From a virus (taxonomy: Duplodnaviria > Heunggongvirae > Uroviricota > Caudoviricetes): a DNA stretch of 64,000 bases. The DNA is taken from the IMG/VR virus record IMGVR_UViG_3300029705_000015; one strand, 5' to 3'. The position numbers and the translations under genes were made by a program. Under the pieces are notes generated by a model. It did not search any database, was not told the DNA's origin, and saw nothing but the letters and a program-made list of their open reading frames with translations. Below, one piece after another: positions 12,458 to 28,284 of this stretch (position 1 is its first letter; every line of letters starts with the position of its first letter).

Positions 12458-12535
12458 CTAGATGTAGCTCAGTTTGGTCAGAGCGCTTGCTTCGGGAGCA
12501 AGAAGTCGCAAGTTCGAATCTTGTCATCTGGACCA
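12458..12535 (+). tRNA. tRNA-Pro(CGG): tRNA-Pro (anticodon CGG)
   Basis: Acceptor CTAGATG/CATCTGG, anticodon arm CTTGC-TTCGGGA-GCAAG, TTCGAAT T-loop and CCA. Confidence 0.65.
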
Positions 12536-12542
12536 TATGATT

Positions 12543-12660
12543 GAAGCAGTTATATCAGTTACTTCAAAAGATGATCAAAACAGCCGTCGAACGACGTGAA
12601 GGTTCAAGTCCTTCTCTGCTTCTAATGGAAGCAGATGGTGGAATAGGTAGACACAGCAGT
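12543..12660 (+). ncRNA. Y-RNA-like tRNA mimic (YrlA-type permuted tRNA-like module)
   Basis: Motif TGAAGCAG-N6-CAGTTACTTC, shared with the repeats downstream of the TROVE gene. It is followed by a T-arm GAAGG-TTCAAGT-CCTTC, an acceptor-like hairpin TCTGCTTC-TAATG-GAAGCAGA and a D-arm-like TGGTGGAATAGGTAGACAC, in the order T-arm, closed acceptor hairpin, D-arm. Confidence 0.45.
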
Positions 12661-12701
12661 CCATAAATCACTGATATTGCACATTCTCAATCATTACATA
12701 T

Positions 12702-12793
12702 AGGGGTGTCGCATAGTGGCGATTGCAGCGGTCTCCAAAACCGCCGAGTACTGATCATGCTCCACCTAGGTTCGAGTCCTAGCGCCCCTGCCA
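12702..12793 (+). tRNA. type II tRNA with anticodon CCA (Trp codon reader), isotype uncertain
   Basis: Acceptor AGGGGTG/CGCCCCT, anticodon arm GCGGT-CTCCAAA-ACCGC, 20-nt variable arm hairpin, T-arm CTAGG-TTCGAGT-CCTAG and CCA. Confidence 0.5.
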
Positions 12794-12800
12794 CATATGA

Positions 12801-12830
12801 ACGGTAGCTTCGGTTACCGTTCTTTTTTTA
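12801..12830 (+). terminator. rho-independent terminator
   Basis: Hairpin ACGGTAGC-TTCG-GTTACCGT (UUCG tetraloop) followed by T7. Confidence 0.65.
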
Positions 12831-12834
12831 TTAG

Positions 12835-12863
12835 TTGATTATTTAACTGTTTAATTATATAAT
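12835..12863 (+). promoter_or_regulatory. sigma70-like promoter (TAGTTGATTATTTAACTGTT...TATAAT)
   Basis: Conserved motif with a 17-nt spacer. Confidence 0.5.
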
Positions 12864-12893
12864 ATGAGTATAAAGCACATGGAGGTAATTGTT

Positions 12894-13625
12894 ATGGATT
12901 ATGTTTCTATTCAGGATATTCGTTGCTTGGCCACTAAGTTGAATGCTGAGCCTGCTTATCAGCACGAGGATGAAGACTTCTATGTTGGAGTAACCACTCT
13001 GGCAAGTGACATTGAAGAGCTTCAGAGATTTCCTAAGAAAAAAGGCTACTGGAAAGGTGTTCGTAAGCAGAAATGGATCTATGCTCAATGTTCTGAGTGT
13101 GGTACTGTTCATGATGTTGCTACTAATTTCTGCCCGGACTGTGGTATTGAAATGGAAAGTAAAGATCTGAAAATGGAGCCAGAAAACAAGATTCAGTTCA
13201 ACGGCATGGTTAACGGAGTTCCTGCATTTACTGGAACACTTCCGTTGGAATTCAACAAAGAGCGTGCAATTGAAATACGCTTAGATAACAACGAAGGTAT
13301 CGCATTCATTCGACTTGCAAATCTTGATGGTTTTGCAACTTATGGAATCGAACAAACAAGAGAACATGATTGTGGTCATGGACCTGGATATATCTGGGCT
13401 AGTAGAGCAACTGTTATGAACAGAGTTTTTGATGTTGCTCTTATTGATGCTCTCTACAAAGTTGAAGGTAGAAACACTTACAGCTGTTGTGCAATTGATC
13501 TCAACACAATGACTCAGTTGCTTGAAGGTACTGAGTACAACGTGGATCCTGTTCCGCGTGTCACCGCAGAAGATATTCATTATGATGTAAAGAGAGTTTG
13601 GAGGAGAGTTGATCGTGAAGGGTAA
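12894..13625 (+). CDS. hypothetical zinc-ribbon protein
   Basis: GGAGG RBS lies 8 nt upstream of the ATG at 12894. CxxC...CxxC ribbon. The 12864 start would lie upstream of the predicted transcription start. Confidence 0.55.
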   Translation: MDYVSIQDIRCLATKLNAEPAYQHEDEDFYVGVTTLASDIEELQRFPKKKGYWKGVRKQKWIYAQCSECGTVHDVATNFCPDCGIEMESKDLKMEPENKIQFNGMVNGVPAFTGTLPLEFNKERAIEIRLDNNEGIAFIRLANLDGFATYGIEQTREHDCGHGPGYIWASRATVMNRVFDVALIDALYKVEGRNTYSCCAIDLNTMTQLLEGTEYNVDPVPRVTAEDIHYDVKRVWRRVDREG

Positions 13626-13914
13626 GAAATTTTCTGCTGCGGAGAAACATTTCCAAGAAAAGGAAATTAAACTCCGCAAAGATATCCAGTACTGGCAAGA
13701 ACTTGCAATTCAACGAGCCGCACATATCAAGGAACTTGAAGCAGCTCTTAAGTCTGCAAATAGTACTGTTGAACAACAAAGAGACTGGATTGAGCGTCTC
13801 TTACAATATACTGAGCTGAGTCCCGAAGATATCAAGGCTGCTTGTGAGAAAGATAAAGCAATGGCAGCATGTGCGGACTTAATCTTAGGTGCAAGTAGCT
13901 TCTGGAGGTTCTAA
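13609..13914 (+). CDS. hypothetical coiled-coil protein
   Basis: ORF overlapping the upstream gene's end. Confidence 0.4.
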   Translation: MIVKGKKFSAAEKHFQEKEIKLRKDIQYWQELAIQRAAHIKELEAALKSANSTVEQQRDWIERLLQYTELSPEDIKAACEKDKAMAACADLILGASSFWRF

Positions 13915-13915
13915 C

Positions 13916-14235
13916 ATGAGAAATACATACAAAGCTCTCGATGTTAGAGAGTGCCGTGTTCTAGAAAACGTGGAATATCGTAAACCGTATGGCGCCGGTG
14001 GCACACCGGATCTGTTTGTGTTCCTCATCAACTTCGTGTTATTGTAATCGCTCAAGAAGACAATGATAAAGCTAGAGTTCGTTTTGAGTTTGTTCAAGCG
14101 TATGAATACCAATTTCTAGGCGAAACTCGTTACACTGGTTACATAGGTGATTGGAATCTGATTGTTCCTGGTGACTACTTCACGATTCAGGAGACTGACA
14201 CTTATGATAAAGTAACTATACTGAGCACACTGTAG
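13916..14235 (+). pseudogene. hypothetical gene with an apparent -1 frameshift (43-codon ORF followed by an 84-codon start-less ORF)
   Basis: The ATG ORF 13916-14047 ends at TAA. An overlapping -1 frame continues to the TAG at 14233 without a start codon. Confidence 0.3.
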
Positions 14236-14264
14236 TTGATTATTTAACTGTTATATTATATAAT
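14236..14264 (+). promoter_or_regulatory. sigma70-like promoter (conserved motif)
   Basis: TAGTTGATTATTTAACTGTTAT, 17-nt spacer, TATAAT. Confidence 0.5.
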
Positions 14265-14302
14265 CATAGTGTAATAAATAAAGCGAAGGATGTGGTTACC
14301 AC

Positions 14303-14551
14303 ATGAAGGTTTGCAGGAAAGTTTTTTCTTATACTACACAGTCCTCTAAGGATAAAAACGATCCTATGGATATGGTGTTGAAAGAGCTGAATGAAACTAT
14401 TGAAGCAGAAAATATCATCAGCATTGAAACAAATTCTTCTCGAGGAGAGTTTCGATATGACCGCGGTAGTTTATTTGACTATGCTTCTATCGACAGAAGT
14501 AATGGTCATTGTCCCTTAACAGTTAATGTAACTGTTTTTTATAGAGCTTGA
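14303..14551 (+). CDS. hypothetical protein
   Basis: ORF downstream of the promoter. Confidence 0.4.
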   Translation: MKVCRKVFSYTTQSSKDKNDPMDMVLKELNETIEAENIISIETNSSRGEFRYDRGSLFDYASIDRSNGHCPLTVNVTVFYRA

Positions 14552-14567
14552 TCAAGGAGGATATACA

Positions 14568-15143
14568 ATGCATAACAAATTTGATGTACGTATCTGCAAA
14601 TGTGGACGAATTCATTTTATCGATAACAATCTCATCGATGAGGCTCTGGAACAAGATAAGAACCTGATGCTGGTATGCGGAGGATGTGGATCCATTCAGC
14701 TTATTGGAGCTGATCGTGAAACTGACTGGGTTGATACTGGCAAGACTGTATTCAATATGTATACCTTCAATATTCAGGAAGAACAGCAGATCTGGGATGC
14801 CTCTCTGTTTACTGGGAGCGATAAGAAAAAGCCTGTTAGCAAGATCTTGTATGACGCGGGCGTTCAGGTAATGATGCAGAGTGGGTACTTTGCCAGATCT
14901 TTTGAAAACGGTGTTGGTAGATTTCAGGATATGTGGTATCCCGATTTTTGGAAGATTCCTGCAAATGCCACTGCACAGGAATACAAAGAGTTCATTGAAC
15001 AGTGGCAGAAAGATTCTGTAACAGTTAATATGCCGTTCCTGCTTCGTACCTTAACAGAGGAACAAGCTCAAGCTCTTTCTGGTTACATTATTGAGGGGCT
15101 TGATTGGAAAGGAACAAAGTTTGAAAGGGAGTGGCACAAATGA
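14568..15143 (+). CDS. hypothetical zinc-ribbon protein
   Basis: GGAGG RBS. CKCGR...CGGCG motif. Confidence 0.5.
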   Translation: MHNKFDVRICKCGRIHFIDNNLIDEALEQDKNLMLVCGGCGSIQLIGADRETDWVDTGKTVFNMYTFNIQEEQQIWDASLFTGSDKKKPVSKILYDAGVQVMMQSGYFARSFENGVGRFQDMWYPDFWKIPANATAQEYKEFIEQWQKDSVTVNMPFLLRTLTEEQAQALSGYIIEGLDWKGTKFEREWHK

Positions 15144-15490
15144 TTGACGGCAATGTAATCAAGTTTGGATATGGAACAGTAGCAGTTGCAAACAACTATT
15201 CCGATGTAGTGTTCACAGCCATTAAACCTCCGCAGGAAGTTGGAAGACAGCTGCAATGTACAGACGAGTTAGAGTATGACTACAAAACTCGAATCAAGAT
15301 TAGCATGGCTGAACATTATCATGAGCTGAAGGAAAAGTTAAAAGCTGTTTTACAGATCAATGATTCTTGCGTTGTTACTGTTGCGGGATATACATTTGAC
15401 TTCAGTAACTTTAATCCGAAAAGTGTCGAAGTGATTCTGGATCATGCCACATATGCTTACCACAGTTATATTCGACTTTGTGCAGTTTAA
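15131..15490 (+). CDS. hypothetical protein
   Basis: ORF overlapping the upstream gene's end. Confidence 0.45.
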   Translation: MAQMIDGNVIKFGYGTVAVANNYSDVVFTAIKPPQEVGRQLQCTDELEYDYKTRIKISMAEHYHELKEKLKAVLQINDSCVVTVAGYTFDFSNFNPKSVEVILDHATYAYHSYIRLCAV

Positions 15491-15503
15491 GGAGGCAATA
15501 CAT

Positions 15504-15989
15504 ATGTTTGATAAGGTTAACAAGCTGCTGGAGCAGTACATCGGTGGGCAGATCTTTTTTACTGAGCTTGATAAAGCTGTAAAGTTCGATTCTTGCATCC
15601 TTGGTCAGCTTGTGGCTGCCGTAAGGGAAGAATTTGGTGAGAATGTGTGCACCATCGCAAGTGGGGAAATCGGTCTGGCTATGCACAACATGGGAGTTCC
15701 CGTTGACTTCCTTGTTCCAGGCGGCCTGAGACACGATCCCTCAAAGATCAATCTGGAGCCTTTCAAAAAGAGCATTGAGGGCAAGGGCTTCGTATTCATT
15801 GACGACTCTTACTTCAGTGGAAGAACTGTACTGGTTGTTCGTGAAGAAATTGCTCGTCTCGGTGGCGTCTTCCTTGGCACATATGTTGCATATGATGGCT
15901 CCAAGAATAAAGAGTGTGATGTTCATGCTCTGTACAGATACTACGATTATCATGATGTACTCGGCAGACCTCTGAAGAAGGAGGAATAA
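15504..15989 (+). CDS. phosphoribosyltransferase (type I PRTase) domain protein
   Basis: PRPP-binding-like motif FVFIDDSYFSGRTV. GGAGG RBS before the ATG at 15504. Confidence 0.55.
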   Translation: MFDKVNKLLEQYIGGQIFFTELDKAVKFDSCILGQLVAAVREEFGENVCTIASGEIGLAMHNMGVPVDFLVPGGLRHDPSKINLEPFKKSIEGKGFVFIDDSYFSGRTVLVVREEIARLGGVFLGTYVAYDGSKNKECDVHALYRYYDYHDVLGRPLKKEE

Positions 15990-15991
15990 GA

Positions 15992-16306
15992 ATGAGCAAG
16001 AGACTCGAACGATATATCATGGATCGAAACTACCATACTTCTGATGAGGAAATTCTGCGGTTGTGTCCTGATGTAATCGGTATTTTTTACGGATTTAACA
16101 ACTACATGTGTAACATTACACATATCAAAGAACTGGTGGATGCTGTACATAAAGAGTATCCTGAAATCAAAGAAGAGGATATGAATGTATGGTATGTTGA
16201 AAAACATATGTCAATTCGACACGCTGGATATACTGTACTACGTGTATCAATTCCAACCAATGATTATCTACAAATGAGAAAAAATCATGAAATTGGAATT
16301 CTGTAA
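15992..16306 (+). CDS. hypothetical protein
   Basis: ORF with AGGAGG RBS. Confidence 0.45.
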   Translation: MSKRLERYIMDRNYHTSDEEILRLCPDVIGIFYGFNNYMCNITHIKELVDAVHKEYPEIKEEDMNVWYVEKHMSIRHAGYTVLRVSIPTNDYLQMRKNHEIGIL

Positions 16307-16322
16307 CTTGAGGTAACTAATC

Positions 16323-16685
16323 ATGATTCATTTCTACAACGAACAGGAATATGGCTATTTTGCATACGTCGATGACCTTGGCAATCTAGTTATTGGAGAA
16401 CGTGTTCCCCATAGAGATGTTCTCTGGCACGGTTTCTACAAAGGGGAAGATGATACTCCCTATCTTGACAAGATCAAAGTAGCAAACCCTAAACTTTATA
16501 AAAGAATTGTGGACTACTTCGAGAACGGTCCGATGGAAGATTCAGATAGTCTTGCAAGTATTGCTCAATGTAGTAACTACACTGATCTTGAAAAATTGGA
16601 AAAGATATTCAAGAGACAAAGAGGTTCCATCTACAAAAATCACATCGAACTTTACTATGTTCTTGCGAGCATGTTTGGAGGATAG
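16323..16685 (+). CDS. hypothetical protein
   Basis: ORF ending at a TAG. Confidence 0.45.
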   Translation: MIHFYNEQEYGYFAYVDDLGNLVIGERVPHRDVLWHGFYKGEDDTPYLDKIKVANPKLYKRIVDYFENGPMEDSDSLASIAQCSNYTDLEKLEKIFKRQRGSIYKNHIELYYVLASMFGG

Positions 16686-16686
16686 A

Positions 16687-17310
16687 ATGGAATCAATCTT
16701 ACTAAGTATGAAGCCTCAAAGATGCGAAAAAGTTGCATCGGGTGACATAACTATCGATATTCGGAAAACAAGAGTGAATATTGAAACACCATTCAAAGTG
16801 TATTTATACTGTACAAAAGGTCGTAGGGCAAAGTCAGAGATTGTTAAAGTAGGTTATGTAATCGGAGAGTTCATATGTAAAAGATTACACTATTTTGCAT
16901 TCCGTGAGATGTTTGCTCCTCCCTTGTGGGAACAGAGTATAGGTAACGGTTACTATATAACTTGTGGCGAACTCGATAAAACAGGTATGTCTTATGATGA
17001 GTTGTGTGAGTATGGCAACGAAAAAGACGTTTACGGTCTAGAAATATCAGATCTTGAAATCTATGATGTTCCAAAACCTCTAAATGAGTTCTACTATGCA
17101 GGAGCGCCGGATTCGTGTGAACTTGAGGATGATCTGTGTGCTTACTGCTCTGCCACTGACTACGGTGAAACAAAATGTTATTCTACTCCGAATGGATACT
17201 ACATGTGCGAAGGTAGCTGGTGTGGTGAAGCATATGACTGCTATCTTGAAGAGAACTACACAATTGTACATCCTCCGAGAAGTTTTTGTAGAGTTGAGGT
17301 GATAAGATGA
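16687..17310 (+). CDS. ASCH domain protein with a Cys-rich C-terminus
   Basis: MKPQRCEKVASGDITIDIRKTR matches the ASCH N-terminal pattern. GGAGG RBS before the ATG at 16687. The longer 16507 ORF is an out-of-context extension. Confidence 0.5.
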   Translation: MESILLSMKPQRCEKVASGDITIDIRKTRVNIETPFKVYLYCTKGRRAKSEIVKVGYVIGEFICKRLHYFAFREMFAPPLWEQSIGNGYYITCGELDKTGMSYDELCEYGNEKDVYGLEISDLEIYDVPKPLNEFYYAGAPDSCELEDDLCAYCSATDYGETKCYSTPNGYYMCEGSWCGEAYDCYLEENYTIVHPPRSFCRVEVIR

Positions 17311-17744
17311 CTGCTGAAAATACAATTCAATGGATGATGGATTTCTATCCTGAACTTTACCCAACAAGAAAGCACTGTTTGAATCAGCTGTTCTGTGTTA
17401 TCGGAAACGGATACAAGTGGATCAATGGAGAACTTGTTGACACCGATCCGGATGAATTTACAAAGCGGTACAAGTTTAAGAAACCAGTTGATAGAGCTGT
17501 TAGTCGAAATGAAGAACATTGGTACTTAATGTCTGACTGGCACAAACAACTAAAACAACTTGATCCAGAACATAGAACTCCTATGCAGTATGAATTTGAG
17601 TGGTATCCGGTAGCTTCAGAATACTCATATGTTGTCAACTTTCCAGAGGACATAACTCCAAGTTGGAAAGCAGCTATTCTGGAATGCAGAAAGTTACTTG
17701 CCTCGGATGGAATTGTGCTCATAGTTGAGGAGGAATCAACATGA
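17307..17744 (+). CDS. hypothetical protein
   Basis: ORF with ATGA overlap. Confidence 0.45.
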   Translation: MTAENTIQWMMDFYPELYPTRKHCLNQLFCVIGNGYKWINGELVDTDPDEFTKRYKFKKPVDRAVSRNEEHWYLMSDWHKQLKQLDPEHRTPMQYEFEWYPVASEYSYVVNFPEDITPSWKAAILECRKLLASDGIVLIVEEEST

Positions 17745-18085
17745 CTGATGAACAAGCTCTTGAAATCTTACAACAAGATCATCCGAAAAACAAAGATGAG
17801 TTTTTTCGAGCTCTTGCATACGCAGCTGTTAAATTTCATGAACGATGTTGGAAAGTATACAACCCCGAAACATTTAGTGACTCATATTCGCTAAGTCAAG
17901 GAATGAAAGTACATCTTGGAATCAGATATAGCGATGGATCACGAGGTCGAGTGGATGGAAAAGTTGCATATGATGTTCGTCACAAATGGAAACTAGAAAT
18001 TGACAGTAGTTCAAAAAATATCTACACTCATGATGCAGTAATCGAAAAGTGGATGCCTTATCCTGATTATCCTAACGATAACTAA
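17741..18085 (+). CDS. hypothetical protein
   Basis: ORF with ATGA overlap. Confidence 0.45.
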   Translation: MTDEQALEILQQDHPKNKDEFFRALAYAAVKFHERCWKVYNPETFSDSYSLSQGMKVHLGIRYSDGSRGRVDGKVAYDVRHKWKLEIDSSSKNIYTHDAVIEKWMPYPDYPNDN

Positions 18086-18116
18086 GCTAACTGTAGAAAT
18101 ATAGTTAGCTTTTTTT
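18085..18116 (+). terminator. rho-independent terminator
   Basis: Hairpin AAGCTAACT/AGTTAGCTT followed by T6. Confidence 0.65.
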
Positions 18117-18118
18117 AG

Positions 18119-18147
18119 TTGATTATTTAACTGTTATCATATATAAT
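18119..18147 (+). promoter_or_regulatory. sigma70-like promoter (conserved motif)
   Basis: TAGTTGATTATTTAACTGTTATC...TATAAT. Confidence 0.5.
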
Positions 18148-18184
18148 GTTAGTATAATAAATAACAGTTAAGGAAGTGCATCTT

Positions 18185-18532
18185 ATGTTTAAGTTCCATA
18201 CTTATGTTCCCGCTTCTCAGATTTGGCCTACTGCTGAAAATCATGTTGACAAGGGAATGGCCCTTGGCTTAGTAAGAGGCTATTGTGTTGAGGTTAAGCT
18301 CAGTGACGGTAGCACTGATTGGTGGTCTTGTGAGTGGATTCAAAGCGAGCCCGAAACTGAATTCAATGATGATTTTCATATTTGGTTGTGGAAGGAAAAC
18401 TGTGTTGAACTCACCGGTAGAATCTGCTTCAGAGGTTATGGTTTTGAAGAATATGACTTTGAAGAGCGTGAACATGTAGTTCGGCCCATCGATGACGCCG
18501 AAGCACTTAAAATCATTCAGAGTGTTGCTTGA
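18185..18532 (+). CDS. hypothetical protein
   Basis: AAGGAAG RBS lies 10 nt upstream of the ATG at 18185. Confidence 0.5.
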   Translation: MFKFHTYVPASQIWPTAENHVDKGMALGLVRGYCVEVKLSDGSTDWWSCEWIQSEPETEFNDDFHIWLWKENCVELTGRICFRGYGFEEYDFEEREHVVRPIDDAEALKIIQSVA

Positions 18533-18545
18533 GGAGGTAACTGTT

Positions 18546-18749
18546 ATGTATGAAATGAATTTTGTTTGTAAGTGTATCAAGTCCTGTTGGGACTTCGATG
18601 TGGACGCTGGAGAGGTTTACAACGGAACTGCTGTTTTCGACAAAAACGGATTTGTTACGTTTGTTATCCACATCTTTGATGACCCTCCTATCCGTTGTGT
18701 TCAAGAGTGGTTCGAAGAGTATTTTGAACTTGTACATACAAACAACTAG
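18546..18749 (+). CDS. hypothetical protein
   Basis: GAGGAGG RBS before the ATG at 18546. Confidence 0.45.
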   Translation: MYEMNFVCKCIKSCWDFDVDAGEVYNGTAVFDKNGFVTFVIHIFDDPPIRCVQEWFEEYFELVHTNN

Positions 18750-18766
18750 TTCAGGAGGTTACTAGA

Positions 18767-19177
18767 ATGAGGTTTAATATATTTGAAAGCACCGTTGGTG
18801 CATGTGTGGCGGTAGAAGATGCACTCACTGAAAGAGAGGCGTTGATTCAGTATCTTCTAAGACATGAAGAACTGGATGATATTATGTTGTGGAAGTTTAC
18901 CGATCGTTCCAGCTCGTGGAAACTTGCTAAGTATGATCAGGAAGATGAATACTTGTATGCAAAGTTAGCTCCTCACGAGGATAACTTGTGGGAATTTTTC
19001 AATCAACTACCTCAAGGATACGATATGCAGATTTTTGATGCCGAAGGTAAACTTTTGGTAGAAAGTTACAATAGCATCTCAAGTTCAATGGATGATTATA
19101 GAATTCAATCCGTAAAAAGATCAGAAACTGATCACACTGTTTTCATTGTAAAAGTTGAGAAGGGAGGGGATGTGTAA
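18767..19177 (+). CDS. hypothetical protein
   Basis: AGGAGG RBS. Confidence 0.5.
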   Translation: MRFNIFESTVGACVAVEDALTEREALIQYLLRHEELDDIMLWKFTDRSSSWKLAKYDQEDEYLYAKLAPHEDNLWEFFNQLPQGYDMQIFDAEGKLLVESYNSISSSMDDYRIQSVKRSETDHTVFIVKVEKGGDV

Positions 19178-19180
19178 ACT

Positions 19181-19579
19181 ATGAAAGAATACACGCTTGA
19201 AAACATCTCTGAATGGGTGAAGGATCTTGAATCTAAGTCAAAGTTTAGTCAATTCAGAGTATATTGCATTGTTTCGAGGCATGATGAAAATTGTGTAAAA
19301 CAAAATCATATCATTGAAGCTGCAGGATTGAACAACAGATTTGGTGGCAAACAGGTTCACTGCGTTGGCGAGGATATGGCTGTCATTGAATATCAAGATT
19401 CAAGAAGAGAAGAAACTTATTTCATACCTTATGTTAAAGATCATCCTCATTCTTCGGAATGGTTTTCATCTTTTGATTGTGCTCTTCTGGCTGCAATAAG
19501 TTTGAAATATACACATAGCGTTGATGGTGGTAAATTTGCTGCAAAAATGTTGGAAGTGAGAGACAAATGCGAGGATTAA
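19181..19579 (+). CDS. hypothetical protein
   Basis: ORF in a tightly packed operon. Confidence 0.5.
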   Translation: MKEYTLENISEWVKDLESKSKFSQFRVYCIVSRHDENCVKQNHIIEAAGLNNRFGGKQVHCVGEDMAVIEYQDSRREETYFIPYVKDHPHSSEWFSSFDCALLAAISLKYTHSVDGGKFAAKMLEVRDKCED

Positions 19580-19584
19580 CTTTG

Positions 19585-19728
19585 ATGCTCGGAGCTATAT
19601 ATCTGTGGTATGTAGCTGCTAACATAAGTAACAAATATGAAAAAGCTAACTTTCTTAGAGGAATATTTGTATTCCTATCTTGGATGTCTTTCATAGCATC
19701 CATTATACTAACATGTATCGGGGTATAA
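19585..19728 (+). CDS. small membrane protein (two predicted TM segments)
   Basis: 47-aa hydrophobic ORF below the track cutoff. Confidence 0.3.
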   Translation: MLGAIYLWYVAANISNKYEKANFLRGIFVFLSWMSFIASIILTCIGV

Positions 19729-19731
19729 CTA

Positions 19732-19944
19732 ATGAGTTATGTTCGTGAAAACACAATTCTAACTGATCTGTTGAAGGTTCCTGTTAATGTGCCATTTGGT
19801 TGTGGTGGCAGTATATATAGAGTTACAAACTACAACAATCTTCAAGTTAAGTACACACACGGTTGGTGTGAAGTTCATCCCGCAGAAGCTGTAGAGGTAT
19901 ACATCAACAGAAACAAAATAAAGATTTTGGAGGATTATGTATGA
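19732..19944 (+). CDS. hypothetical protein
   Basis: ORF. Confidence 0.4.
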   Translation: MSYVRENTILTDLLKVPVNVPFGCGGSIYRVTNYNNLQVKYTHGWCEVHPAEAVEVYINRNKIKILEDYV

Positions 19945-20100
19945 TTATCCGTAAGGGTTGGAGACGTAAAATATATCGCAGAGATAGCGATATCAGTAAG
20001 TACGTTTATGAAGGTTGGTTTTTGCTTGGAATCTTCCCTTTGTATATCCATCGAGTCACTGTATATAACAAGTGACATATACCAGAGAGGATAACTAACA

Positions 20101-20295
20101 ATGGCAACTAAACCTATTACAAATGACACTGAACAACGCTCTGCAACTATTCTACTAAATCATCATAGTTTAGCAATGTGCAACGACAAGACCATGGACA
20201 AACTTGTTGAAAATTTTGCACAAGCAAAAGATCTTCTGATTGAAATTTACAAGTACAACGCAAAACGTATTGTTGAGTCACAAGAAAAGAAATAA
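20101..20295 (+). CDS. hypothetical protein
   Basis: ORF with a GAGG RBS. Confidence 0.4.
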   Translation: MATKPITNDTEQRSATILLNHHSLAMCNDKTMDKLVENFAQAKDLLIEIYKYNAKRIVESQEKK

Positions 20296-20340
20296 CGCGC
20301 ACAACTGATTGTGCAAGGATGTGCATAGGAGATAACTACT

Positions 20341-20970
20341 TTGGGATTATTTACACCGGAACAAAATAAGAAGCTGATTGAAATCTATCCATATTTACAA
20401 CCTCGCAATGTTTGGACAGATAAGATCCCAGAGGACTACGACTACAGTTACATTCGTGGTGACAGAGAGGTTCCTGATGGTTGGATGCGATTGTTCTTGC
20501 TATATTGTAAAGCAATTCGTCCTGCTCTTGTTAACGATAACTATCTCGAGCAATTTCGTTTTTCTCAGGTAAAGGAAAAGTACGGATCAATGCGCTTATA
20601 TGACTTTGGTGCACCGAAAGAAGTTCGAGATCAGGAATGGCTTTACAGTGGATATAGTGAGTTTGTTTGCCAGCGCTGCGGCAACTTCGCTAAGTATAGA
20701 ACTTCATACTGGGTGGAACAGCTATGTGAACAATGCTATGATCCGAAGGAGTGTAGCGAGTCTGTTGAAAAAGTTGTTAAACACAGATCTATAACCATTC
20801 GTTCCTATGGACGAGATGGAGATACGTCAAGGACTCTATCATACAAAGATGTAAACACTGAGTACCGTAAGTGTATGAAGATGACAGATCAGCAATTCTT
20901 CGATTACATTACAAAGGAGGAGAACTATGCTCCAGAAAAACATCGACAAACAGGAACGCAAGAAGCGTGA
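20341..20970 (+). CDS. hypothetical zinc-ribbon protein (TTG start)
   Basis: CQRCG...CEQC motif. GGAG RBS. Confidence 0.45.
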   Translation: MGLFTPEQNKKLIEIYPYLQPRNVWTDKIPEDYDYSYIRGDREVPDGWMRLFLLYCKAIRPALVNDNYLEQFRFSQVKEKYGSMRLYDFGAPKEVRDQEWLYSGYSEFVCQRCGNFAKYRTSYWVEQLCEQCYDPKECSESVEKVVKHRSITIRSYGRDGDTSRTLSYKDVNTEYRKCMKMTDQQFFDYITKEENYAPEKHRQTGTQEA

Positions 20971-21206
20971 TACTTGGGTTGGATACTACCCTCGTAGAAC
21001 TCCTACCAAGAAGACGCTGATGGATCGTCAAGATAAAAAGCACAGGAATAAACAAGCCCTGCTATCTACTAAGTGGCGGGGTGATTTTTTGCCAGTTTTT
21101 TGGTAGTTTTTCTTAGTAGATCTTGTTACAACTAATCAAGTAGTATACATTATACTCTACAAGTTGATCGCGTTAAAACTTGTTGCACAAAGTGTAATAA
21201 ATCAAG

Positions 21207-21235
21207 TTGAATTACAATAATATAATAAATATAAT
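21207..21235 (+). promoter_or_regulatory. sigma70-like promoter (TTGAAT-17-TATAAT)
   Basis: Conserved motif. Additional AAGTTGAT copies occur at 21164 and 21275. Confidence 0.4.
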
Positions 21236-21313
21236 ATGACCTGTGGTCATTAACTTGGTTAAAGTTATACAAAGTTGATTGTACGATTTAAGTAAAAGTA
21301 TGAGGTCTACAAC

Positions 21314-21529
21314 ATGAAGATGATTACAGCAAAAGGCTACAAAGCATTCCACGGCAAGATGCTTATTCAGCTTGCTCCAAGTGTAAAAGATGTTGCTCCA
21401 TTTATCGAGGGCCCATATGATTGGATCTATGATCCTGAAACAAATATGTGGTATTCAGATCATCATTCCTATTCCGGCAACGTAACTACTCCGTTGTTTG
21501 ATGATTGGAAAGACGAAAAAACAAGTTGA
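21314..21529 (+). CDS. hypothetical protein
   Basis: ORF. Confidence 0.45.
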   Translation: MKMITAKGYKAFHGKMLIQLAPSVKDVAPFIEGPYDWIYDPETNMWYSDHHSYSGNVTTPLFDDWKDEKTS

Positions 21530-21554
21530 TTGTTTTAACAGTTTACAATATAAT
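21526..21554 (+). promoter_or_regulatory. sigma70-like promoter (TTGATT-17-TATAAT)
   Basis: Conserved motif. Confidence 0.45.
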
Positions 21555-21630
21555 GTAAGTGTAGATAATAAATTTACAAATGAATTCTCAATCAAGTTAT
21601 TACATATCTTTTATGAGGAGGAGTTTGTAA

Positions 21631-21873
21631 ATGAGTGAACTACGATATGCTACTGTACGAAAGTATGCTTCTCGTGAGTTAGCAAACAACAACTGTCAAC
21701 ATGCAATAATTGGAGCAAAGATTGTTCAAGAGGATGGTCAGGCTGTTCTAGTTCTTGCAAGTAATCCTGATAGGATTGTTTACATTGTTGATGATGTGTC
21801 CTTTGAGAATTACATTCAGATGTTGTTTGATAAGTATCCACAGATTAATTCAATTTGTGCAGTTCATAGATAG
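21631..21873 (+). CDS. hypothetical protein
   Basis: GAGGAGG RBS. Ends at TAG 4 nt before a tRNA. Confidence 0.5.
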   Translation: MSELRYATVRKYASRELANNNCQHAIIGAKIVQEDGQAVLVLASNPDRIVYIVDDVSFENYIQMLFDKYPQINSICAVHR

Positions 21874-21877
21874 AAAC

Positions 21878-21953
21878 GGGCCATTAGCTCAACTGGCAGA
21901 GCATCTGGCTCATAACCGGACGGTTCAGGGTTCAATCCCCTGGTGGCCCACCA
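21878..21953 (+). tRNA. tRNA-Met(CAT): tRNA-Met (anticodon CAT)
   Basis: Acceptor GGGCCAT/GTGGCCC, anticodon arm TCTGG-CTCATAA-CCGGA, TTCAATC T-loop and CCA. Confidence 0.7.
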
Positions 21954-22756: not shown

Positions 22757-22768
22757 TACAAAAGATAG

Positions 22769-25889: not shown

Positions 25890-25941
25890 ATGGATGTAAA
25901 CGATAGATAAATTCTTAGATGATTACAAGGAGATGACCTGT

Positions 25942-27603
25942 ATGAGCAAATTGTCTAATGCAGCAATGGAAATGCGTGAAGAGGCAACTCTGCGCAGAGA
26001 CGAAACCGTCGTCAATTTTATGGGTGGTGACTCTTATGTTATCAACCCTCTGGACACCTTGAAGATGATTACCGCGTCTTCTATTTATGGTGAGCCTTCC
26101 TATTATCGGGATAGTGCTAGCGCAAAGAAGACTTGCGGTAAATACACTCTGGATAGTCGGTATGTTACTGACTCTGTTATTCCTTCCGAGTATGAAGGTA
26201 AGCAGACCAATGTGGTTATGGAGGAGGCAATTGATGCCGCTCTGAACTACGATTTTGCAGGAACTTTGCAGTGGGCAATTGAATTGCGTAATGAGTTCAA
26301 TATGCGCTTGAATCCTCAGGTAATCATGGTTCGGGCTGCCCTGCATCCGAAGCGTGCTGAGTTTACTGCAGCAAATCCTGGTGAGTTTGATAAGATCAAT
26401 CAGCAGGTGATGTCTCGTGCCGATGAGCCGATGACTCAGATGGCTTACTACTTGTACAAGAACAAGGGCAAGAAGAACAACATTCCTTCTGTTATTAAGC
26501 GCTCTTGGGCAACTAAGCTGAGTAAGCTCGGCAGATATCCTGTTGCTAAGTACAAGAATCATGAAATCGGCATGATCAATGCGGTTCGTTTGTGTCATGC
26601 AAACTCAGCTGTCATTGATGAACTGATGACTTCTGGCACTGTTGAGGTGTCTGAAGATAAGAAGACTTGGGAGAATCTTCGCTCCGAAGGCAAGTCTTGG
26701 AAGGAAATTTTCCAGACTGTTGATATGGGTCACATGGCTCTACTTCGTAACCTGCGCGGTGTATTCAGCGAGGTAGACGATGTAGCATTCTGTAAGGAAT
26801 ATCTGGATAAGCTGAAGGCTGGTGTTCTTACCGGCAAACAGTTCCCGTTCCGTTACTATGCAGCAATGAATGCTGTTAACAGCAGTAGCAAGTGCAATCA
26901 TCGTTCTATGATCATTGATGCTCTGGAGGAGTGCTTTGACATTGCTCTTGAGAACTATCCTAAGTTAAAGGGCAAGACGATGTGTCTGTCTGATAACTCC
27001 GGGTCTGCTTGGGGCACAATGAACTCTGAGTATGGCACTGTTACAATTGCAGAAATTGACAACTTGTCTTCCGTTATTACTGCAGCTTGCTCCGAAGATG
27101 GTTATGTTGGTGAATTTGGTGACAGACTCATTGTTCATCCTGTTAGCAAGCGTCAGGGCGTCCTGAATCAAGCCAAGCAGATCTCTATGGATCGCGGTCG
27201 TAAGGTTGGTGGTTCCACCGAGGGTGGTATCTGGGAGTTCTTCTACAATGCTATCCAGAACAAGGAACATTGGGATAACATCTTCATCTACTCTGACCAG
27301 CAAGCAGGCCATGGTGGTTTGTATGGTACTTCCACTCAGTCTGCTAAGTACTCCAAGGCAGGATTCGGCTGCGGTAGTGCATGGGGTGGCAACTACATCA
27401 ACGTGTATAAGTTGATCCTGGAGTACCGTAAGAAGGTTAATCCTCATGTTAACGTCTTCTCTATTCAGACTGCAGGTTATGATAACATTGTAATTCCTGA
27501 AATGGCTTATCGTACTGCTATTCAGTATGGTTGGACCGGCAAGGAAGCGGTGTTTGCCTCTGAATACATTCGTCAGTGGAATGACATTGAAAACCGTAAC
27601 TAA
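25942..27603 (+). CDS. Ro60/Rsr-like TROVE domain protein with a C-terminal vWA domain
   Basis: The N-terminal VNFMGGDSYVINPLDTLKMITASSIYGEPSYY matches the Ro60/Rsr N-terminal pattern. The C-terminal MIDAS motif CLSDNSGSAWG indicates a vWA domain. AAGGAG RBS lies 9 nt before the ATG at 25942. Confidence 0.7.
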   Translation: MSKLSNAAMEMREEATLRRDETVVNFMGGDSYVINPLDTLKMITASSIYGEPSYYRDSASAKKTCGKYTLDSRYVTDSVIPSEYEGKQTNVVMEEAIDAALNYDFAGTLQWAIELRNEFNMRLNPQVIMVRAALHPKRAEFTAANPGEFDKINQQVMSRADEPMTQMAYYLYKNKGKKNNIPSVIKRSWATKLSKLGRYPVAKYKNHEIGMINAVRLCHANSAVIDELMTSGTVEVSEDKKTWENLRSEGKSWKEIFQTVDMGHMALLRNLRGVFSEVDDVAFCKEYLDKLKAGVLTGKQFPFRYYAAMNAVNSSSKCNHRSMIIDALEECFDIALENYPKLKGKTMCLSDNSGSAWGTMNSEYGTVTIAEIDNLSSVITAACSEDGYVGEFGDRLIVHPVSKRQGVLNQAKQISMDRGRKVGGSTEGGIWEFFYNAIQNKEHWDNIFIYSDQQAGHGGLYGTSTQSAKYSKAGFGCGSAWGGNYINVYKLILEYRKKVNPHVNVFSIQTAGYDNIVIPEMAYRTAIQYGWTGKEAVFASEYIRQWNDIENRN

Positions 27604-27739
27604 CTAAAGTAGATGGCTGAAGCGGCCGTAACAGTTCCTTCAAAAATAACATCTTACATACTCTACAAATGTTTTCTTTTGAACTCTTTTATAACTTCAC
27701 CTCCTGTTATAAATCCATTTTTTCAAACTGTTACATTTC

Positions 27740-28227
27740 ATTCTCAGCCTTTACATAGATAAACTAGATACTACGATTGTTGATGCAGTTGGTCCAGTTA
27801 CTTCGGATAATAAATTTTACTGTCAAACAAAATTTTAGTTGGTTCAAATCCAACAACGTCTATTGCGGGCGTAAGTGCTTATGCTGGAACAGTATTTCTC
27901 AACAATCTTTGAAAACATAGTTTGCTGATGCAGCTGAAAGAGTTACTTCAAATTTGACTGTTAATCAAAAACTTGAGACCACATATCTCTTTCCTTTATT
28001 CTCAGCTTCTATATAACAATAAAATATCATTTGTGATGCAGTCGAATCAGTTACTTCTTGCTTAGGGAGCACGGGGTCGTGGGTTCGAGTCCCACCTGTT
28101 CGTTTAAGCAGCGACAGTAGCTCAGTCGGGAGAGCACGTACAATAGTATTCACTGGTTCATTTATTCTCACAAATTGTTATTGTATAATATATCATATGT
28201 TTCGATGCGGTAGTTCGAGATACTTCA
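27740..28227 (+). repeat. array of four direct repeats (TGATGCAG-N6-9-(C)AGTTACTTC) with tRNA-like arms; candidate Y-RNA (YrlA-like) genes
   Basis: Repeats lie at 27781-27805, 27926-27949, 28034-28057 and 28203-28227. Each is preceded by TTATTCTCA. T-arm-like GTTGG-TTCAAAT-CCAAC sits at 27838-27854 and GTGGG-TTCGAGT-CCCAC at 28079-28095. A hairpin and a D-arm-like GCGACAGTAGCTCAGTCGGGAGAGCAC follow at 28111-28137. Confidence 0.45.
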
Positions 28228-28284
28228 ACATTGTTTTTCTGGATGTACTTAAGACCTTGAACAATTGTTCTCGAAACATCTTAT

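What the first reader, a model, noticed from the sequence alone, without database searches (positions are those of the whole stretch)
12543..12660. Second permuted tRNA-like (YrlA-type) module inside the tRNA island
The repeat-family motif TGAAGCAG-N6-CAGTTACTTC is followed by a canonical T-arm (GAAGG-TTCAAGT-CCTTC). Next comes an acceptor-stem mimic closed by a loop (TCTGCTTC-TAATG-GAAGCAGA, perfectly complementary), then a D-arm (TGGTGGAATAGGTAGACAC). A real tRNA has the order 5' acceptor, D, anticodon, T, 3' acceptor. This T-arm, closed-acceptor, D-arm order is the architecture described for bacterial YrlA Y RNAs, and it lies 15 kb from the TROVE gene.
Basis: seen in the sequence. Interest (0 to 1): 0.6.

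Follow-up and report, generated by a model that had tools for sequence, protein, structure and literature searches.

The report
Phage Y RNA mimicking leucine tRNA
This 158-base stretch of a giant-phage genome encodes a small non-coding "Y RNA": its middle folds like a rearranged leucine tRNA and its two ends pair into the handle that the phage's Ro protein is expected to grip. It is one more example of an already described RNA class, not a new kind of element.

Summary
Two nested helices (P1, P2) join its ends and carry the 5' motif GAAGCAG-N6-CAGUUACUUC. That motif recurs in five units directly after the TROVE/Ro gene. Inside sit an anticodon-stem analogue, a variable arm, a T arm, an 8-bp closed acceptor hairpin and a D arm of tRNA-Leu type. 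This is the circularly permuted order that defines YrlA-type Y RNAs.

Four orthologues keep 97.6% of pair positions as standard pairs and show compensatory changes at 7 pairs. A covariance model built without the target finds it full length (43.7 bits, E about 1e-6). Real tRNA dimers in the window score 17-18 bits. Rfam's YrlA model misses the target, and it gives the Ro-adjacent paralogue only 30.5 bits.

The unit lies 13.2 kb from Ro, not 15 kb. It sits 1 nt after tRNA-Pro and 7 nt before tRNA-Trp, upstream of a terminator. Y-type RNAs of phage G relatives were reported in 2014.

Verdict: a new member of a known kind, with a Leu-type head that recurs in other large phages. Ro binding and the partner of the tRNA-like head are inferred, not shown.

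The parts
12537..12544 (+). P1 5' strand (ATGATTGA). Outer closing helix of the Y RNA; begins 1 nt after the CCA of tRNA-Pro.
   Evidence: An exact 8-nt complement lies at 12687-12694. All 24 units examined have such a helix, each with a different sequence.
12543..12565 (+). Family 5' motif GAAGCAG-N6-CAGTTACTTC, the presumed Ro-recognition strand. It overlaps P1 and P2. The UACUUC tail is 12560-12565.
   Evidence: 5 matches against 0.05 expected in the window. The motif is also found in phage G, Atuin and many large-phage contigs. It resembles GNCGAAN0-1G of YrlA but does not equal it.
12552..12559 (+). P2 5' strand (ATATCAGT).
   Evidence: Pairs with 12670-12677 in the MFE fold of all four orthologues. 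P2 differs in sequence between paralogous units yet stays complementary.
12580..12584 (+). P3 5' strand (ACAGC), equivalent to tRNA positions 39-43 of the anticodon stem.
   Evidence: Pairs with 12656-12660. One compensatory pair (C-G to U-A), and one A.A mismatch that becomes C-G in L004.
12585..12596 (+). Variable-arm hairpin CGTC-GAAC-GACG, followed by U48 at 12597.
   Evidence: Two pairs change on both sides in L006. It is predicted in every orthologue's MFE fold.
12598..12614 (+). T arm GAAGG-TTCAAGT-CCTTC.
   Evidence: The stem is invariant among orthologues. The loop is identical to that of the phage's own tRNA-Leu(tag).
12615..12635 (+). Closed acceptor-stem analogue: TCTGCTTC (12615-12622), loop TAATG (12623-12627), GAAGCAGA (12628-12635).
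   Evidence: 8 bp. Three pairs change on both sides across four orthologues, and 96.9% of pair positions are standard pairs.
12636..12655 (+). U8-G9 linker (12636-12637), D arm GTG-GAATAGGTAGA-CAC (12638-12654) and A26 (12655). This is a class II, tRNA-Leu-type D arm.
   Evidence: 15 of 17 bases identical to the D-arm region of the window's tRNA-Leu(tag). U-A changes to C-G in two orthologues. The same D-arm type occurs in Y units of three other phage contigs.
12656..12660 (+). P3 3' strand (GCAGT), equivalent to tRNA positions 27-31.
12670..12677 (+). P2 3' strand (ACTGATAT).
12678..12686 (+). 3' side of the internal loop between P2 and P1 (TGCACATTC). It carries the family-conserved ...AUUC that leads into UC of P1.
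   Evidence: Similar 3' loops (ATTTATTC, AAATAATC, ATTTCATTC) occur in the other units.
12687..12694 (+). P1 3' strand (TCAATCAT). A further 7 nt (TACATAT) lead to the first base of tRNA-Trp.
12458..12535 (+). tRNA-Pro(cgg), the immediate upstream neighbour. The neighbour order Pro, Y unit, Trp (synteny) is conserved in all four orthologues.
12702..12793 (+). tRNA-Trp(cca), the immediate downstream neighbour. Its RNase P site would set the 3' end of the Y RNA (inferred).
12799..12829 (+). Intrinsic terminator-like hairpin followed by a T run. It closes the Lys-Gly-Pro-Y-Trp transcription unit.
   Evidence: sbrA-like terminator hit.
25933..27603 (+). TROVE/Ro60 homologue (556 aa), the presumed protein partner.
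   Evidence: 54% identical to phage G gp540, annotated as a putative TROVE ribonucleoprotein. Pfam TROVE 19.7 bits, below the 23-bit cut-off. Matches the solved structure of Thermus phage phiLo Ro60 (PDB 9KOP/9L5Y) at E=2.4e-6.
27615..28279 (+). Array of five paralogous Y-type units: 27615-27749, 27775-27907, 27924-28006, 28029-28175 (class I tRNA-like head) and 28197-28279.

Best explanation
Window 12537-12694 (+) encodes a YrlA-type Y RNA of a phage G-like jumbo phage.

Shown:
- The two ends pair into two helices (P1, P2). These flank a conserved asymmetric internal loop that carries the family motif.
- The interior folds as a circularly permuted class II tRNA, in the order anticodon-stem analogue, variable arm, T arm, closed 8-bp acceptor hairpin, U8-G9, Leu-type D arm.
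- The helices are kept by compensatory substitutions.

Inferred:
- The RNA is transcribed with tRNA-Lys, Gly, Pro and Trp and ends at the terminator at 12799-12829.
- It is cut out by the enzymes that mature the flanking tRNAs. RNase P at tRNA-Trp would leave a 7-nt 3' tail.
- Its P1/loop/P2 module is bound by the phage Ro60 encoded 13.2 kb downstream.
- Its L-shaped head presents a tRNA-Leu-like elbow to a tRNA-binding protein. In this way it would tether that partner, or an exoribonuclease such as host PNPase, to Ro, as described for bacterial Y RNAs and the Thermus phage phiLo Yrl RNAs.
For: - Anatomy read directly from the sequence.
- P1, P2, V, T and acceptor hairpin appear in the independent MFE folds of all four orthologues.
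- On the four-orthologue alignment, 97.6% of pair positions are standard pairs and 7 of 41 pairs change on both sides. At most 1 of 500 shuffles reach this, and versions of the structure with each 3' partner shifted by 1-3 columns give 0-2.
- The end regions (first 29 nt, last 25 nt) are identical or nearly so in the four orthologues, while the head diverges.
- In 24 of 24 units across four genomes the 5-10 nt before the motif have an exact complement downstream, each with a different sequence.
- Model R1, built without the target, finds it full length at 43.7 bits, E=7e-7 in 138 kb, with every element aligned. True tRNA dimers score 17-18 bits.
- The un-permuted halves are called as a class II tRNA by ARAGORN at default settings.
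- Among the window's 22 tRNAs, the head is most similar to the two tRNA-Leu genes.
- The same motif-bearing units sit directly next to Ro in the window, phage G, Atuin and five further contigs.
- Leu-type heads lie within 2 kb of Ro in L024 and L020.
- The Ro-adjacent paralogue gets a full-length Rfam YrlA hit at E=1.4e-4.
- A15:U48 in the target against G15:C48 in the paralogue matches the Levitt-pair covariation reported for YrlA.
- The spacing from tRNA-Pro is 1 nt in the window and L005; in L004, and probably L006, a 134-nt insert lies between them. The spacing to tRNA-Trp is 5-7 nt in all four.
Against: - There is no expression, Ro-binding or modification data.
- Rfam RF02553 does not detect the target at E<=10.
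- The 5' motif reads UGAAG, not the CGAA of the published consensus.
- The unit is 13.2 kb from Ro, outside the 4-kb window used to report YrlA RNAs.
- Much of the R1 score probably comes from the end module, since units without a tRNA-like head score as high.
- P1, P2 and the T stem do not vary among the four orthologues, so those helices rest on comparison between paralogues.
- The 3-bp D stem is not predicted by thermodynamic folding, and the full proposed structure lies 7-11 kcal/mol above the MFE.
- No promoter was identified.
Confidence: 0.8

Rival explanations
1. It is a decaying remnant of two tandem tRNA-Leu genes with no function. The first copy would keep its 5' acceptor (GAAGCAG at 12543), variable arm, T arm and 3' acceptor. 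The second copy would keep its 5' acceptor, D arm and a degenerate anticodon arm.
For: - GAAGCAG occurs at both 12543 and 12628, and either copy can pair with CTGCTTC at 12616-12622.
- Rfam tRNA-Sec (20.5 bits, E=0.14) and ARAGORN at a relaxed threshold both draw a poor tRNA from 12543 to 12622.
- A hairpin after the D arm has a 7-nt loop CAUAAAU with UAA in the anticodon position.
- A dimeric-tRNA origin of YrlA has been proposed in the literature.
Against: - Compensatory changes in the acceptor hairpin, D stem, V arm and P3 across four orthologues show selection on the permuted fold.
- In L005 the upstream pairing gains an A.C mismatch, while the hairpin partner compensates.
- The upstream GAAGCAG is the family motif, found also in units with no tRNA-like part.
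- The anticodon-like hairpin is not kept in L004 or L005.
- The ends are almost invariant, which is unlike a pseudogene.
- This reading may describe the origin of the element, not its present state.
Confidence: 0.03
2. It is a genuine circularly permuted tRNA gene. Its transcript would be circularised or ligated and re-cut to give a working tRNA-Leu(UAA).
For: - The un-permuted halves joined through the native hairpin are called tRNA-Leu(taa) by ARAGORN.
- The window has tRNA-Leu(tag) and (caa) but no (taa).
Against: - The anticodon-like loop has A, not U, at position 33, and it is not conserved: CCAUAAAUC in the window and L005, CCAAGACAU in L004, CCAAAUUC in L006.
- Its 3' strand is shared with the invariant helix P2.
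- Position 73 is C and no CCA follows it.
- The unit is enclosed by the same end module as units that have no tRNA part.
- From general knowledge, permuted tRNA genes are known only in some algae and archaea and need a splicing endonuclease and a ligase. No such genes were seen among the window ORFs scanned.
Confidence: 0.02
3. It is a two-piece Y RNA. The 7-8-bp acceptor stem stacked on the T stem would be cut by RNase P in the closing loop. The new 3' end would be trimmed and CCA-tailed, as shown for Mycobacterium smegmatis YrlA. The functional RNA would then be nicked and might carry an amino acid.
For: - The acceptor analogue has 7 bp plus a G-1:C73 pair.
- M. smegmatis YrlA has a 7-bp stem and is cleaved by RNase P and gains CCA, whereas shorter stems are not cleaved.
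- The phage G unit has ACCA directly after its 3' acceptor strand and a 25-nt loop.
- Phage G encodes a CCA-adding enzyme nearby.
Against: - The loop has only 5 nt in the window and is closed by a further pair, so little single-stranded leader is available.
- No CCA is encoded after C73 in any of the four orthologues.
- Loop length and sequence are not conserved.
- Nothing here tests cleavage.
Confidence: 0.12
4. It is a conformational switch. The 3' acceptor strand would pair either with the downstream GAAGCAGA, giving the tRNA-like head and leaving the Ro motif free, or with the upstream motif GAAGCAG, masking the Ro motif.
For: - The alternative helix is a perfect 7 bp in the window and still pairs, with one G.U, in L004 and L006.
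- The 3' strand changed at fewer positions than its hairpin partner.
Against: - The alternative helix has an A.C mismatch in L005.
- The relation is not seen in the other tRNA-like units: 28029, phage G, L024, L020, L046.
- The alternative also excludes helix P1, which is in the MFE fold of every orthologue.
Confidence: 0.03

Closest known systems
YrlA (Y RNA-like A; Rfam RF02553) of Salmonella Typhimurium, M. smegmatis and other bacteria (Chen et al. 2014, PMC4201824; crystal structure 6CU1, bioRxiv 10.1101/312249)
   Same: - The ends pair into a stem that carries a 5' Ro-recognition motif.
- The interior is a circularly permuted tRNA in the order V region, T arm, closed acceptor hairpin, D arm, anticodon-stem analogue.
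- A pyrimidine at position 48 can form the Levitt pair.
- It is encoded on the same strand as Ro.
   Different: - The D arm is class II/Leu type (3-bp stem, 11-nt loop, UG rather than the conserved UA linker), not the near-invariant GCUC...GAGC arm.
- The motif reads UGAAG, not CGAA.
- There are extra conserved blocks, UACUUC and AUUCUC.
- It lies 13.2 kb from Ro inside a tRNA operon.
- It is not detected by RF02553.
Y RNA-like RNAs of Bacillus phage G, Caulobacter phage CcrColossus and mycobacteriophages (reported by Chen et al. 2014; cited in PMC12135203)
   Same: - The phage G locus holds six units with the same motif and P1/P2 module.
- One of them (L002 17783-17938) has a T arm, acceptor hairpin and D arm head.
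- The window's Ro is 54% identical to phage G gp540.
   Different: - Phage G has no Leu-type head among the units I found.
- Its unit inside the tRNA cluster (25366-25428) is a 63-nt unit with no tRNA-like head.
- I could not see which phage G units the 2014 paper listed, because its supplement is not held.
Yrl1/Yrl2 of Thermus phage phiLo with phiRo60 (PMC12135203; PDB 9L5Y)
   Same: - Phage-encoded Y-like RNAs next to a phage Ro60, with a 5'-3' stem and a bulge.
- They form a complex with host PNPase.
- The window's Ro matches this solved structure by sequence.
   Different: - The phiLo RNAs are described as stem-bulge-stem with a CGAA motif.
- YrlA is never mentioned in that paper's main text, and tRNA only twice.
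Tandem (dimeric) tRNA genes
   Same: The T arm of one tRNA followed by the acceptor strands and the D arm of the next gives the same local order. This is a known false positive for YrlA searches.
   Different: - Neither half here is a complete tRNA.
- The two acceptor strands pair with each other and co-vary.
- The unit is enclosed by P1/P2.
- Real dimers in the window score 17-18 bits against 43.7 for the target.
Circularly permuted tRNA genes of Cyanidioschyzon merolae and permuted two-piece tmRNA genes (from general knowledge, not tested here)
   Same: The 3' half is encoded before the 5' half, joined through the acceptor region.
   Different: Those are processed into working tRNA or tmRNA with a free CCA end. 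Here there is no conserved anticodon loop and no CCA, and the unit carries a Ro-type stem.

Membership tests
YrlA-type Y RNA (Chen et al. 2014; Rfam RF02553) | T stem-loop with a tRNA-like T loop | tested here: met
   GAAGG-UUCAAGU-CCUUC at 12598-12614. It aligns to the T arm of model R1.
YrlA-type Y RNA (Chen et al. 2014; Rfam RF02553) | Closed stem-loop (AS) between the T and D arms, in place of the acceptor stem | tested here: met
   8 bp at 12615-12622 with 12628-12635. Three pairs change on both sides in four orthologues.
YrlA-type Y RNA (Chen et al. 2014; Rfam RF02553) | D stem-loop after the AS, nearly invariant in sequence among YrlA RNAs, joined to the AS by a conserved UA | tested here: inconclusive
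   A D arm is present with G18 G19 and covaries. However, it is of tRNA-Leu type (GUG-GAAUAGGUAGA-CAC), and the linker is UG, not UA.
YrlA-type Y RNA (Chen et al. 2014; Rfam RF02553) | V region upstream of T that ends in a pyrimidine able to form the 15:48 Levitt pair | tested here: met
   Hairpin at 12585-12596, then U48 at 12597, with A15 at 12643. The paralogue 28029 has G15:C48.
YrlA-type Y RNA (Chen et al. 2014; Rfam RF02553) | Motif GNCGAAN0-1G near the 5' end | tested here: inconclusive
   The target reads GAUUGAAGCAG, with UGAAG in place of CGAAG and the upstream G one base further out. Atuin units read CCGAAGCG.
YrlA-type Y RNA (Chen et al. 2014; Rfam RF02553) | 5' and 3' ends pair to form the stem that carries the Ro-binding module | tested here: met
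   P1 and P2.
YrlA-type Y RNA (Chen et al. 2014; Rfam RF02553) | Encoded within 4 kb of the Ro60 gene on the same strand (the reporting criterion of the 2014 survey) | tested here: not met
   Same strand, but 13.2 kb upstream (12694 to 25933). Leu-type heads in L024 and L020 do lie within 2 kb of Ro.
YrlA-type Y RNA (Chen et al. 2014; Rfam RF02553) | Reaches the Rfam gathering score (69 bits) | tested here: not met
   No hit at E<=10. The Ro-adjacent paralogue reaches 30.5 bits and an Atuin unit 31.7 bits. So this whole phage group falls below the curated threshold.
YrlA-type Y RNA (Chen et al. 2014; Rfam RF02553) | Bound by Ro60/Rsr, and modified by TruB and DusA | not testable with these tools
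   Needs immunoprecipitation and modification mapping.
Canonical tRNA (RF00005) | Contiguous cloverleaf with an anticodon loop and a free 3' end | tested here: not met
   No RF00005 hit and no ARAGORN call in 12536-12701 at default settings.
Functional circularly permuted tRNA gene | Conserved 7-nt anticodon loop with U33, and a discriminator base followed by CCA or a processing site | tested here: not met
   The loop has A33 and varies between orthologues. C73 is followed by non-conserved loop bases.
Tandem tRNA dimer | Two complete tRNA genes head to tail | tested here: not met
   Neither half is complete. The R1 score is far above that of real dimers.

The most novel reading that the evidence does not exclude
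Large phages may carry two conserved classes of tRNA-like Y RNA heads: a class I type, and a tRNA-Leu type with a 3-bp D stem and a UG linker. On this reading the Leu-type head recruits a different tRNA-binding partner to Ro60, one that reads the class II elbow and D loop without needing an anticodon. A candidate is LeuRS, which from general knowledge does not use the anticodon. In this lineage the Leu-type Y RNA has been moved into a tRNA operon, so its synthesis and end maturation would be coupled to the phage's own tRNA supply through RNase P and the 3' processing enzymes.
Probability: 0.2. Interest if true: 0.55.

Novelty: new member of a known kind. Interest (0 to 1): 0.35.

Why it matters
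Y RNAs that mimic tRNA are known, but the partner of the tRNA-like head is still unidentified. This unit offers three practical handles on that question.
- One phage genome encodes two different heads, class I-like at 28029 and Leu-like at 12537, on the same Ro-binding handle. That is a natural paired bait for finding head-specific partners.
- Current Rfam annotation misses this phage group entirely, so Y RNAs in jumbo phages are under-counted. A group-specific model finds arrays of 3-6 units per locus.
- The tight packing between tRNAs suggests that the tRNA-processing enzymes define the Y RNA ends, which is directly testable.

None of this changes the class to which the RNA belongs.

Tried and rejected
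- Rfam scans, both at gathering thresholds and at E<=10 over 451 nt, gave no YrlA hit on the target. The only hits were a weak tRNA-Sec match and chance matches.
- blastn of the locus against 50,697 phage records found only the flanking tRNAs. The one exception was Arthrobacter phage Atuin, where the match ran into the motif. That lead opened the family comparison.
- An exact 54-nt pattern of the head found nothing in IMG/VR. Orthologues came from a neighbouring protein and from the conserved 24-nt motif in metagenomes.
- MAFFT alignments of paralogues from different phages mis-registered P2 and the long phage G loop. I therefore trimmed the phage G loop and built the model from three consistent sequences.
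- The ARAGORN label "Leu" on my un-permuted construct with an inserted anticodon arm is circular, because I supplied that anticodon. The Leu assignment rests instead on D-arm and T-loop similarity to the window's own tRNA-Leu genes.
- I considered and set aside four readings: an ordinary tRNA from 12543 to 12622, a conserved anticodon arm, a conformational switch, and ACCA in the loop of L005 as a processing signal. In L005 the ACCA is out of register with position 73.
- Two reviews (PMC10870794, PMC6047535) and the supplement of the 2014 paper are not held.
- Pfam scans of 25 window ORFs found no RNA-processing enzyme besides Ro.
Full report
**1. What is in the sequence**

The finding lies between tRNA-Pro(cgg) at 12458-12535 and tRNA-Trp(cca) at 12702-12793, both on the + strand.
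- motif TGAAGCAG-N6-CAGTTACTTC at 12542-12565
- T arm GAAGG-TTCAAGT-CCTTC at 12598-12614
- perfectly complementary TCTGCTTC-TAATG-GAAGCAGA at 12615-12635
- TG at 12636-12637, followed by GTG-GAATAGGTAGA-CAC at 12638-12654

The motif is not a chance repeat. Allowing three mismatches it occurs five times in the window against 0.05 expected. The other four copies, plus a degenerate fifth, lie in tandem directly after a 556-aa ORF at 25933-27603.

That ORF is a Ro60/TROVE homologue:
- 54% identical to phage G gp540, annotated as a putative TROVE ribonucleoprotein
- matches the solved structure of Thermus phage phiLo Ro60 at E=2.4e-6
- Pfam TROVE scores 19.7 bits, just under the 23-bit cut-off

**2. 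The unit is larger than reported and is closed by its own ends**

The MFE fold of 12536-12701 pairs ATGATTGA (12537-12544) with TCAATCAT (12687-12694). It also pairs ATATCAGT (12552-12559) with ACTGATAT (12670-12677). The z-score is -2.9.

A script applied the same logic to every motif copy. In the window, its close relative (IMG/VR UViG_3300022753_000036), phage G and Arthrobacter phage Atuin, 24 of 24 units have an exact complement of the 5-10 nt preceding the motif some 60-160 nt downstream. The helix sequence differs from unit to unit. A second helix (P2) behaves the same way in most units.

This is the layout of a Y RNA: the ends form a stem around a conserved asymmetric loop. Here the 5' side reads GA(A/U)GC(A/G)G and the 3' side ...A(U/A)UC.

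**3. The interior is a circularly permuted class II tRNA**

In tRNA numbering the interior reads as follows.

| tRNA element | Sequence | Window coordinates |
|---|---|---|
| positions 39-43 | ACAGC | 12580-12584 |
| variable arm | CGUC-GAAC-GACG | 12585-12596 |
| U48 | U | 12597 |
| T arm | GAAGG-UUCAAGU-CCUUC | 12598-12614 |
| 66-72 plus C73 | UCUGCUUC | 12615-12622 |
| closing loop | UAAUG | 12623-12627 |
| G-1 plus 1-7 | GAAGCAGA | 12628-12635 |
| U8 G9 | UG | 12636-12637 |
| D arm (3-bp stem, 11-nt loop) | GUG-GAAUAGGUAGA-CAC | 12638-12654 |
| A26 | A | 12655 |
| positions 27-31 | GCAGU | 12656-12660 |

When the two halves are joined in the normal order through a generic anticodon arm, ARAGORN calls a class II tRNA at default settings. 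The native unit gives no call. The "Leu" label on that construct is circular, because I supplied the anticodon.

The independent evidence for a Leu type is similarity. Among the window's 22 tRNAs, the head without its acceptor strands is most similar to the two tRNA-Leu genes. The D-arm region is 15/17 identical to tRNA-Leu(tag), and the T loop is identical.

**4. Orthologues and covariation**

Three orthologues were found:
- L004 5440-5597, in the IMG/VR relative
- L005 3616-3774 (-), in a metagenome assembly
- L006 931-1089, in the same assembly

In all four, the first 29 nt are identical and the last 25 nt are nearly so, while the head has diverged.

On the four-sequence alignment the proposed structure has 41 pairs:
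- 97.6% of pair positions (one pair in one sequence) are standard pairs.
- 7 pairs change on both sides: 3 in the acceptor hairpin, 2 in the V arm, 1 in the D stem and 1 in P3.
- At most 1 of 500 shuffles reach these values.
- Versions with each 3' partner shifted by 1-3 columns give 0-2 such pairs.

P1, P2 and the T stem do not vary among orthologues, so their support comes from the paralogue comparison. Each orthologue's own MFE fold contains P1, P2, V, T and the acceptor hairpin, and L004's also contains P3. The 3-bp D stem is never predicted, as is usual for D arms, and the full model lies 7-11 kcal/mol above the MFE.

**5. Covariance-model tests**

Rfam's YrlA model (RF02553) gives no hit on the target at E<=10. 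It gives a full-length but sub-threshold hit on the Ro-adjacent paralogue 28044-28162: 30.5 bits, E=1.4e-4, against a gathering score of 69. It also gives 31.7 bits on an Atuin unit. The structure line of that model confirms the order T arm, acceptor hairpin, D arm inside nested outer stems.

I then built model R1 from three tRNA-like units, excluding the target and its orthologues: window 28029, its orthologue in the relative, and phage G 17782 with its 25-nt loop shortened. Results:
- R1 finds the target full length at 43.7 bits, E=7e-7 in 138 kb, with P1, motif, P2, T, acceptor hairpin and D all aligned.
- The orthologues score 38-49 bits.
- Units without a tRNA-like head score as high, so much of the score comes from the end module.
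- Genuine tRNA dimers in the window (29158-29287, 31479-31614) score only 17-18 bits.

Rfam's YrlA model gives no score on the target, but a family-specific YrlA-type covariance model does. No tRNA finder calls a pair of adjacent tRNA fragments.

**6. Rival readings**

- *Ordinary tRNA from 12543 to 12622.* The upstream GAAGCAG could serve as the 5' acceptor strand. This is what the weak tRNA-Sec hit and relaxed ARAGORN see. In L005, however, the change in the 3' strand is compensated in the hairpin partner and leaves an A.C mismatch with the upstream copy. The upstream GAAGCAG is also simply the family motif.
- *Anticodon arm.* A hairpin after the D arm has loop CAUAAAU with UAA in the anticodon position. 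It has A at position 33, is not conserved in L004 or L005, and competes with the invariant helix P2. A working permuted tRNA is therefore very unlikely.
- *Fossils of origin.* These two features may be remnants of a tandem tRNA-Leu duplication. That would fit the published idea that YrlA RNAs arose from dimeric tRNA transcripts.
[quoted passage not shown] It remains possible here but is not supported by any encoded CCA in the four orthologues.

**7. Context and likely biogenesis**

On the + strand there is no terminator-like site between 11070 and 12799. A strong terminator-like hairpin with a T run follows tRNA-Trp at 12799-12829. No promoter was identified.

The unit starts 1 nt after the CCA of tRNA-Pro. 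It ends 7 nt before tRNA-Trp in the window and 5-7 nt before it in the orthologues.

The same tight packing recurs elsewhere:
- In Atuin, unit 3074-3183 lies between tRNA-Pro (ends 3072) and tRNA-Gly (starts 3187). Other Atuin units sit 3-5 nt from tRNA-Trp, Thr and Phe.
- In the window, unit 28197-28279 lies 5 nt before tRNA-Ala.

I infer co-transcription with the tRNAs and release by RNase P and the tRNA 3'-end machinery. This is inference only.

**8. How widespread it is**

The degenerate motif has exact matches in 40 IMG/VR stretches. R1 finds arrays of 3-4 units in several 110-260 kb contigs. Ro homologues of 50-57% identity lie next to the arrays in L020, L024, L027, L028 and L039.

Three further units, in contigs distinct from the window's lineage, carry the same Leu-type head: L024 5329-5482, L020 3985-4110 (-) and L046 7268-7382. 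Each has a T arm, a closed acceptor hairpin of unrelated but complementary sequence, a UG linker, a 3-bp GCG/CGC D stem with a GG loop, and a purine at position 26. In L024 and L020 this unit lies within 2 kb of Ro.

The Leu-type head is therefore a recurrent subtype. The window's lineage is unusual mainly in having it 13.2 kb from Ro, inside a tRNA operon.

**9. Comparison with what is known**

YrlA RNAs were described in 2014 as widespread tRNA mimics encoded near Ro in 254 bacteria and 22 phages. Their features are a V region, T arm, acceptor-stem analogue (AS) and D arm, a GNCGAAN0-1G motif, and 15:48 covariation. The crystal structure shows a true L shape, with the Ro module extending from the anticodon-stem analogue. 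The authors describe most YrlA RNAs as circularly permuted tRNAs with a closed acceptor stem. A 2025 paper states that Y RNA-like RNAs had already been identified in phage G.

The target meets the architectural features. It departs in these respects:
- D-arm type and linker (Leu-type arm, UG not UA)
- exact motif (UGAAG not CGAA)
- distance from Ro (13.2 kb)
- Rfam score (none)

I file it as a YrlA-type Y RNA of the phage G group, a new member of a known kind. Ro binding and the effector of the head are inferred by analogy: PNPase tethering in Deinococcus and Salmonella, and in Thermus phage phiLo.

**10. Verdict**

| Item | Result |
|---|---|
| Observation | confirmed, with corrected boundaries and distance |
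| Confidence that this is a structured Y-type RNA with a permuted tRNA-Leu-like head | about 0.8 |
| Interest | 0.35 |

Noticed in passing
window 32667-33336 (+): A full-length ROOL RNA (Rfam RF03087, 283 bits, E=7e-64) lies directly after tRNA-Thr (32555-32640), in the same tRNA/ncRNA island.
   Followed up: no
window 12702-12793; also 29695-29789 and 32555-32640: tRNAs that are normally class I carry long variable arms here: tRNA-Trp(cca) 92 nt, tRNA-Ile(tat) 95 nt and tRNA-Thr(tgt) 86 nt. The Trp arm is a hairpin of different sequence in L006 and is absent in L005, where the tRNA-Trp has ordinary length.
   Followed up: partly
window 23322-23455 (+): Rfam tRNA hit of 134 nt (42.8 bits) that ARAGORN does not call. 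It may be an intron-containing or otherwise interrupted tRNA.
   Followed up: no
window 22059-22136 (+): ARAGORN reports a tRNA of undetermined identity with a 2-nt 'anticodon' (at). Rfam tRNA scores it only 33 bits. Its D-arm region resembles the Leu-type D arm nearly as well as the real tRNA-Leu genes do.
   Followed up: no
L004 5306-5439; L006 upstream of 931: Two orthologous loci carry an extra 134-nt element between tRNA-Pro and the Y unit. It is closed by CCTCACAATC...GATTGTATTCTGTGAGAGG and is absent from the window and L005. It could be another structured RNA or an insertion.
   Followed up: no
L002 (phage G) 17783-17938: The tRNA-like Y unit of phage G has a 7-bp acceptor analogue whose 3' strand is followed directly by ACCA and a 25-nt loop. 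That is an encoded discriminator plus CCA, which suggests RNase P-type processing. A tRNA nucleotidyltransferase gene lies about 8 kb upstream.
   Followed up: partly
L001 (Arthrobacter phage Atuin) 2766-5648: Six Y-type units are interleaved with tRNA genes at 1-5 nt spacing around the annotated Ro-like gene. None is annotated in the GenBank record.
   Followed up: partly
window 12543-12549 and 12628-12634: The family motif GAAGCAG is identical to the 5' strand of the acceptor hairpin in the window, 6/7 in L006, and lower in L004 and L005. It is unexplained. It could be a remnant of a tandem tRNA origin or an alternative pairing.
   Followed up: partly
window 27615-28279: Of the five Ro-adjacent units, only 28029-28175 has a full tRNA-like head. 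Unit 27775-27907 has a T arm and a following hairpin but no D arm. The other three have unrelated interiors, so the heads of the array are diversified.
   Followed up: partly
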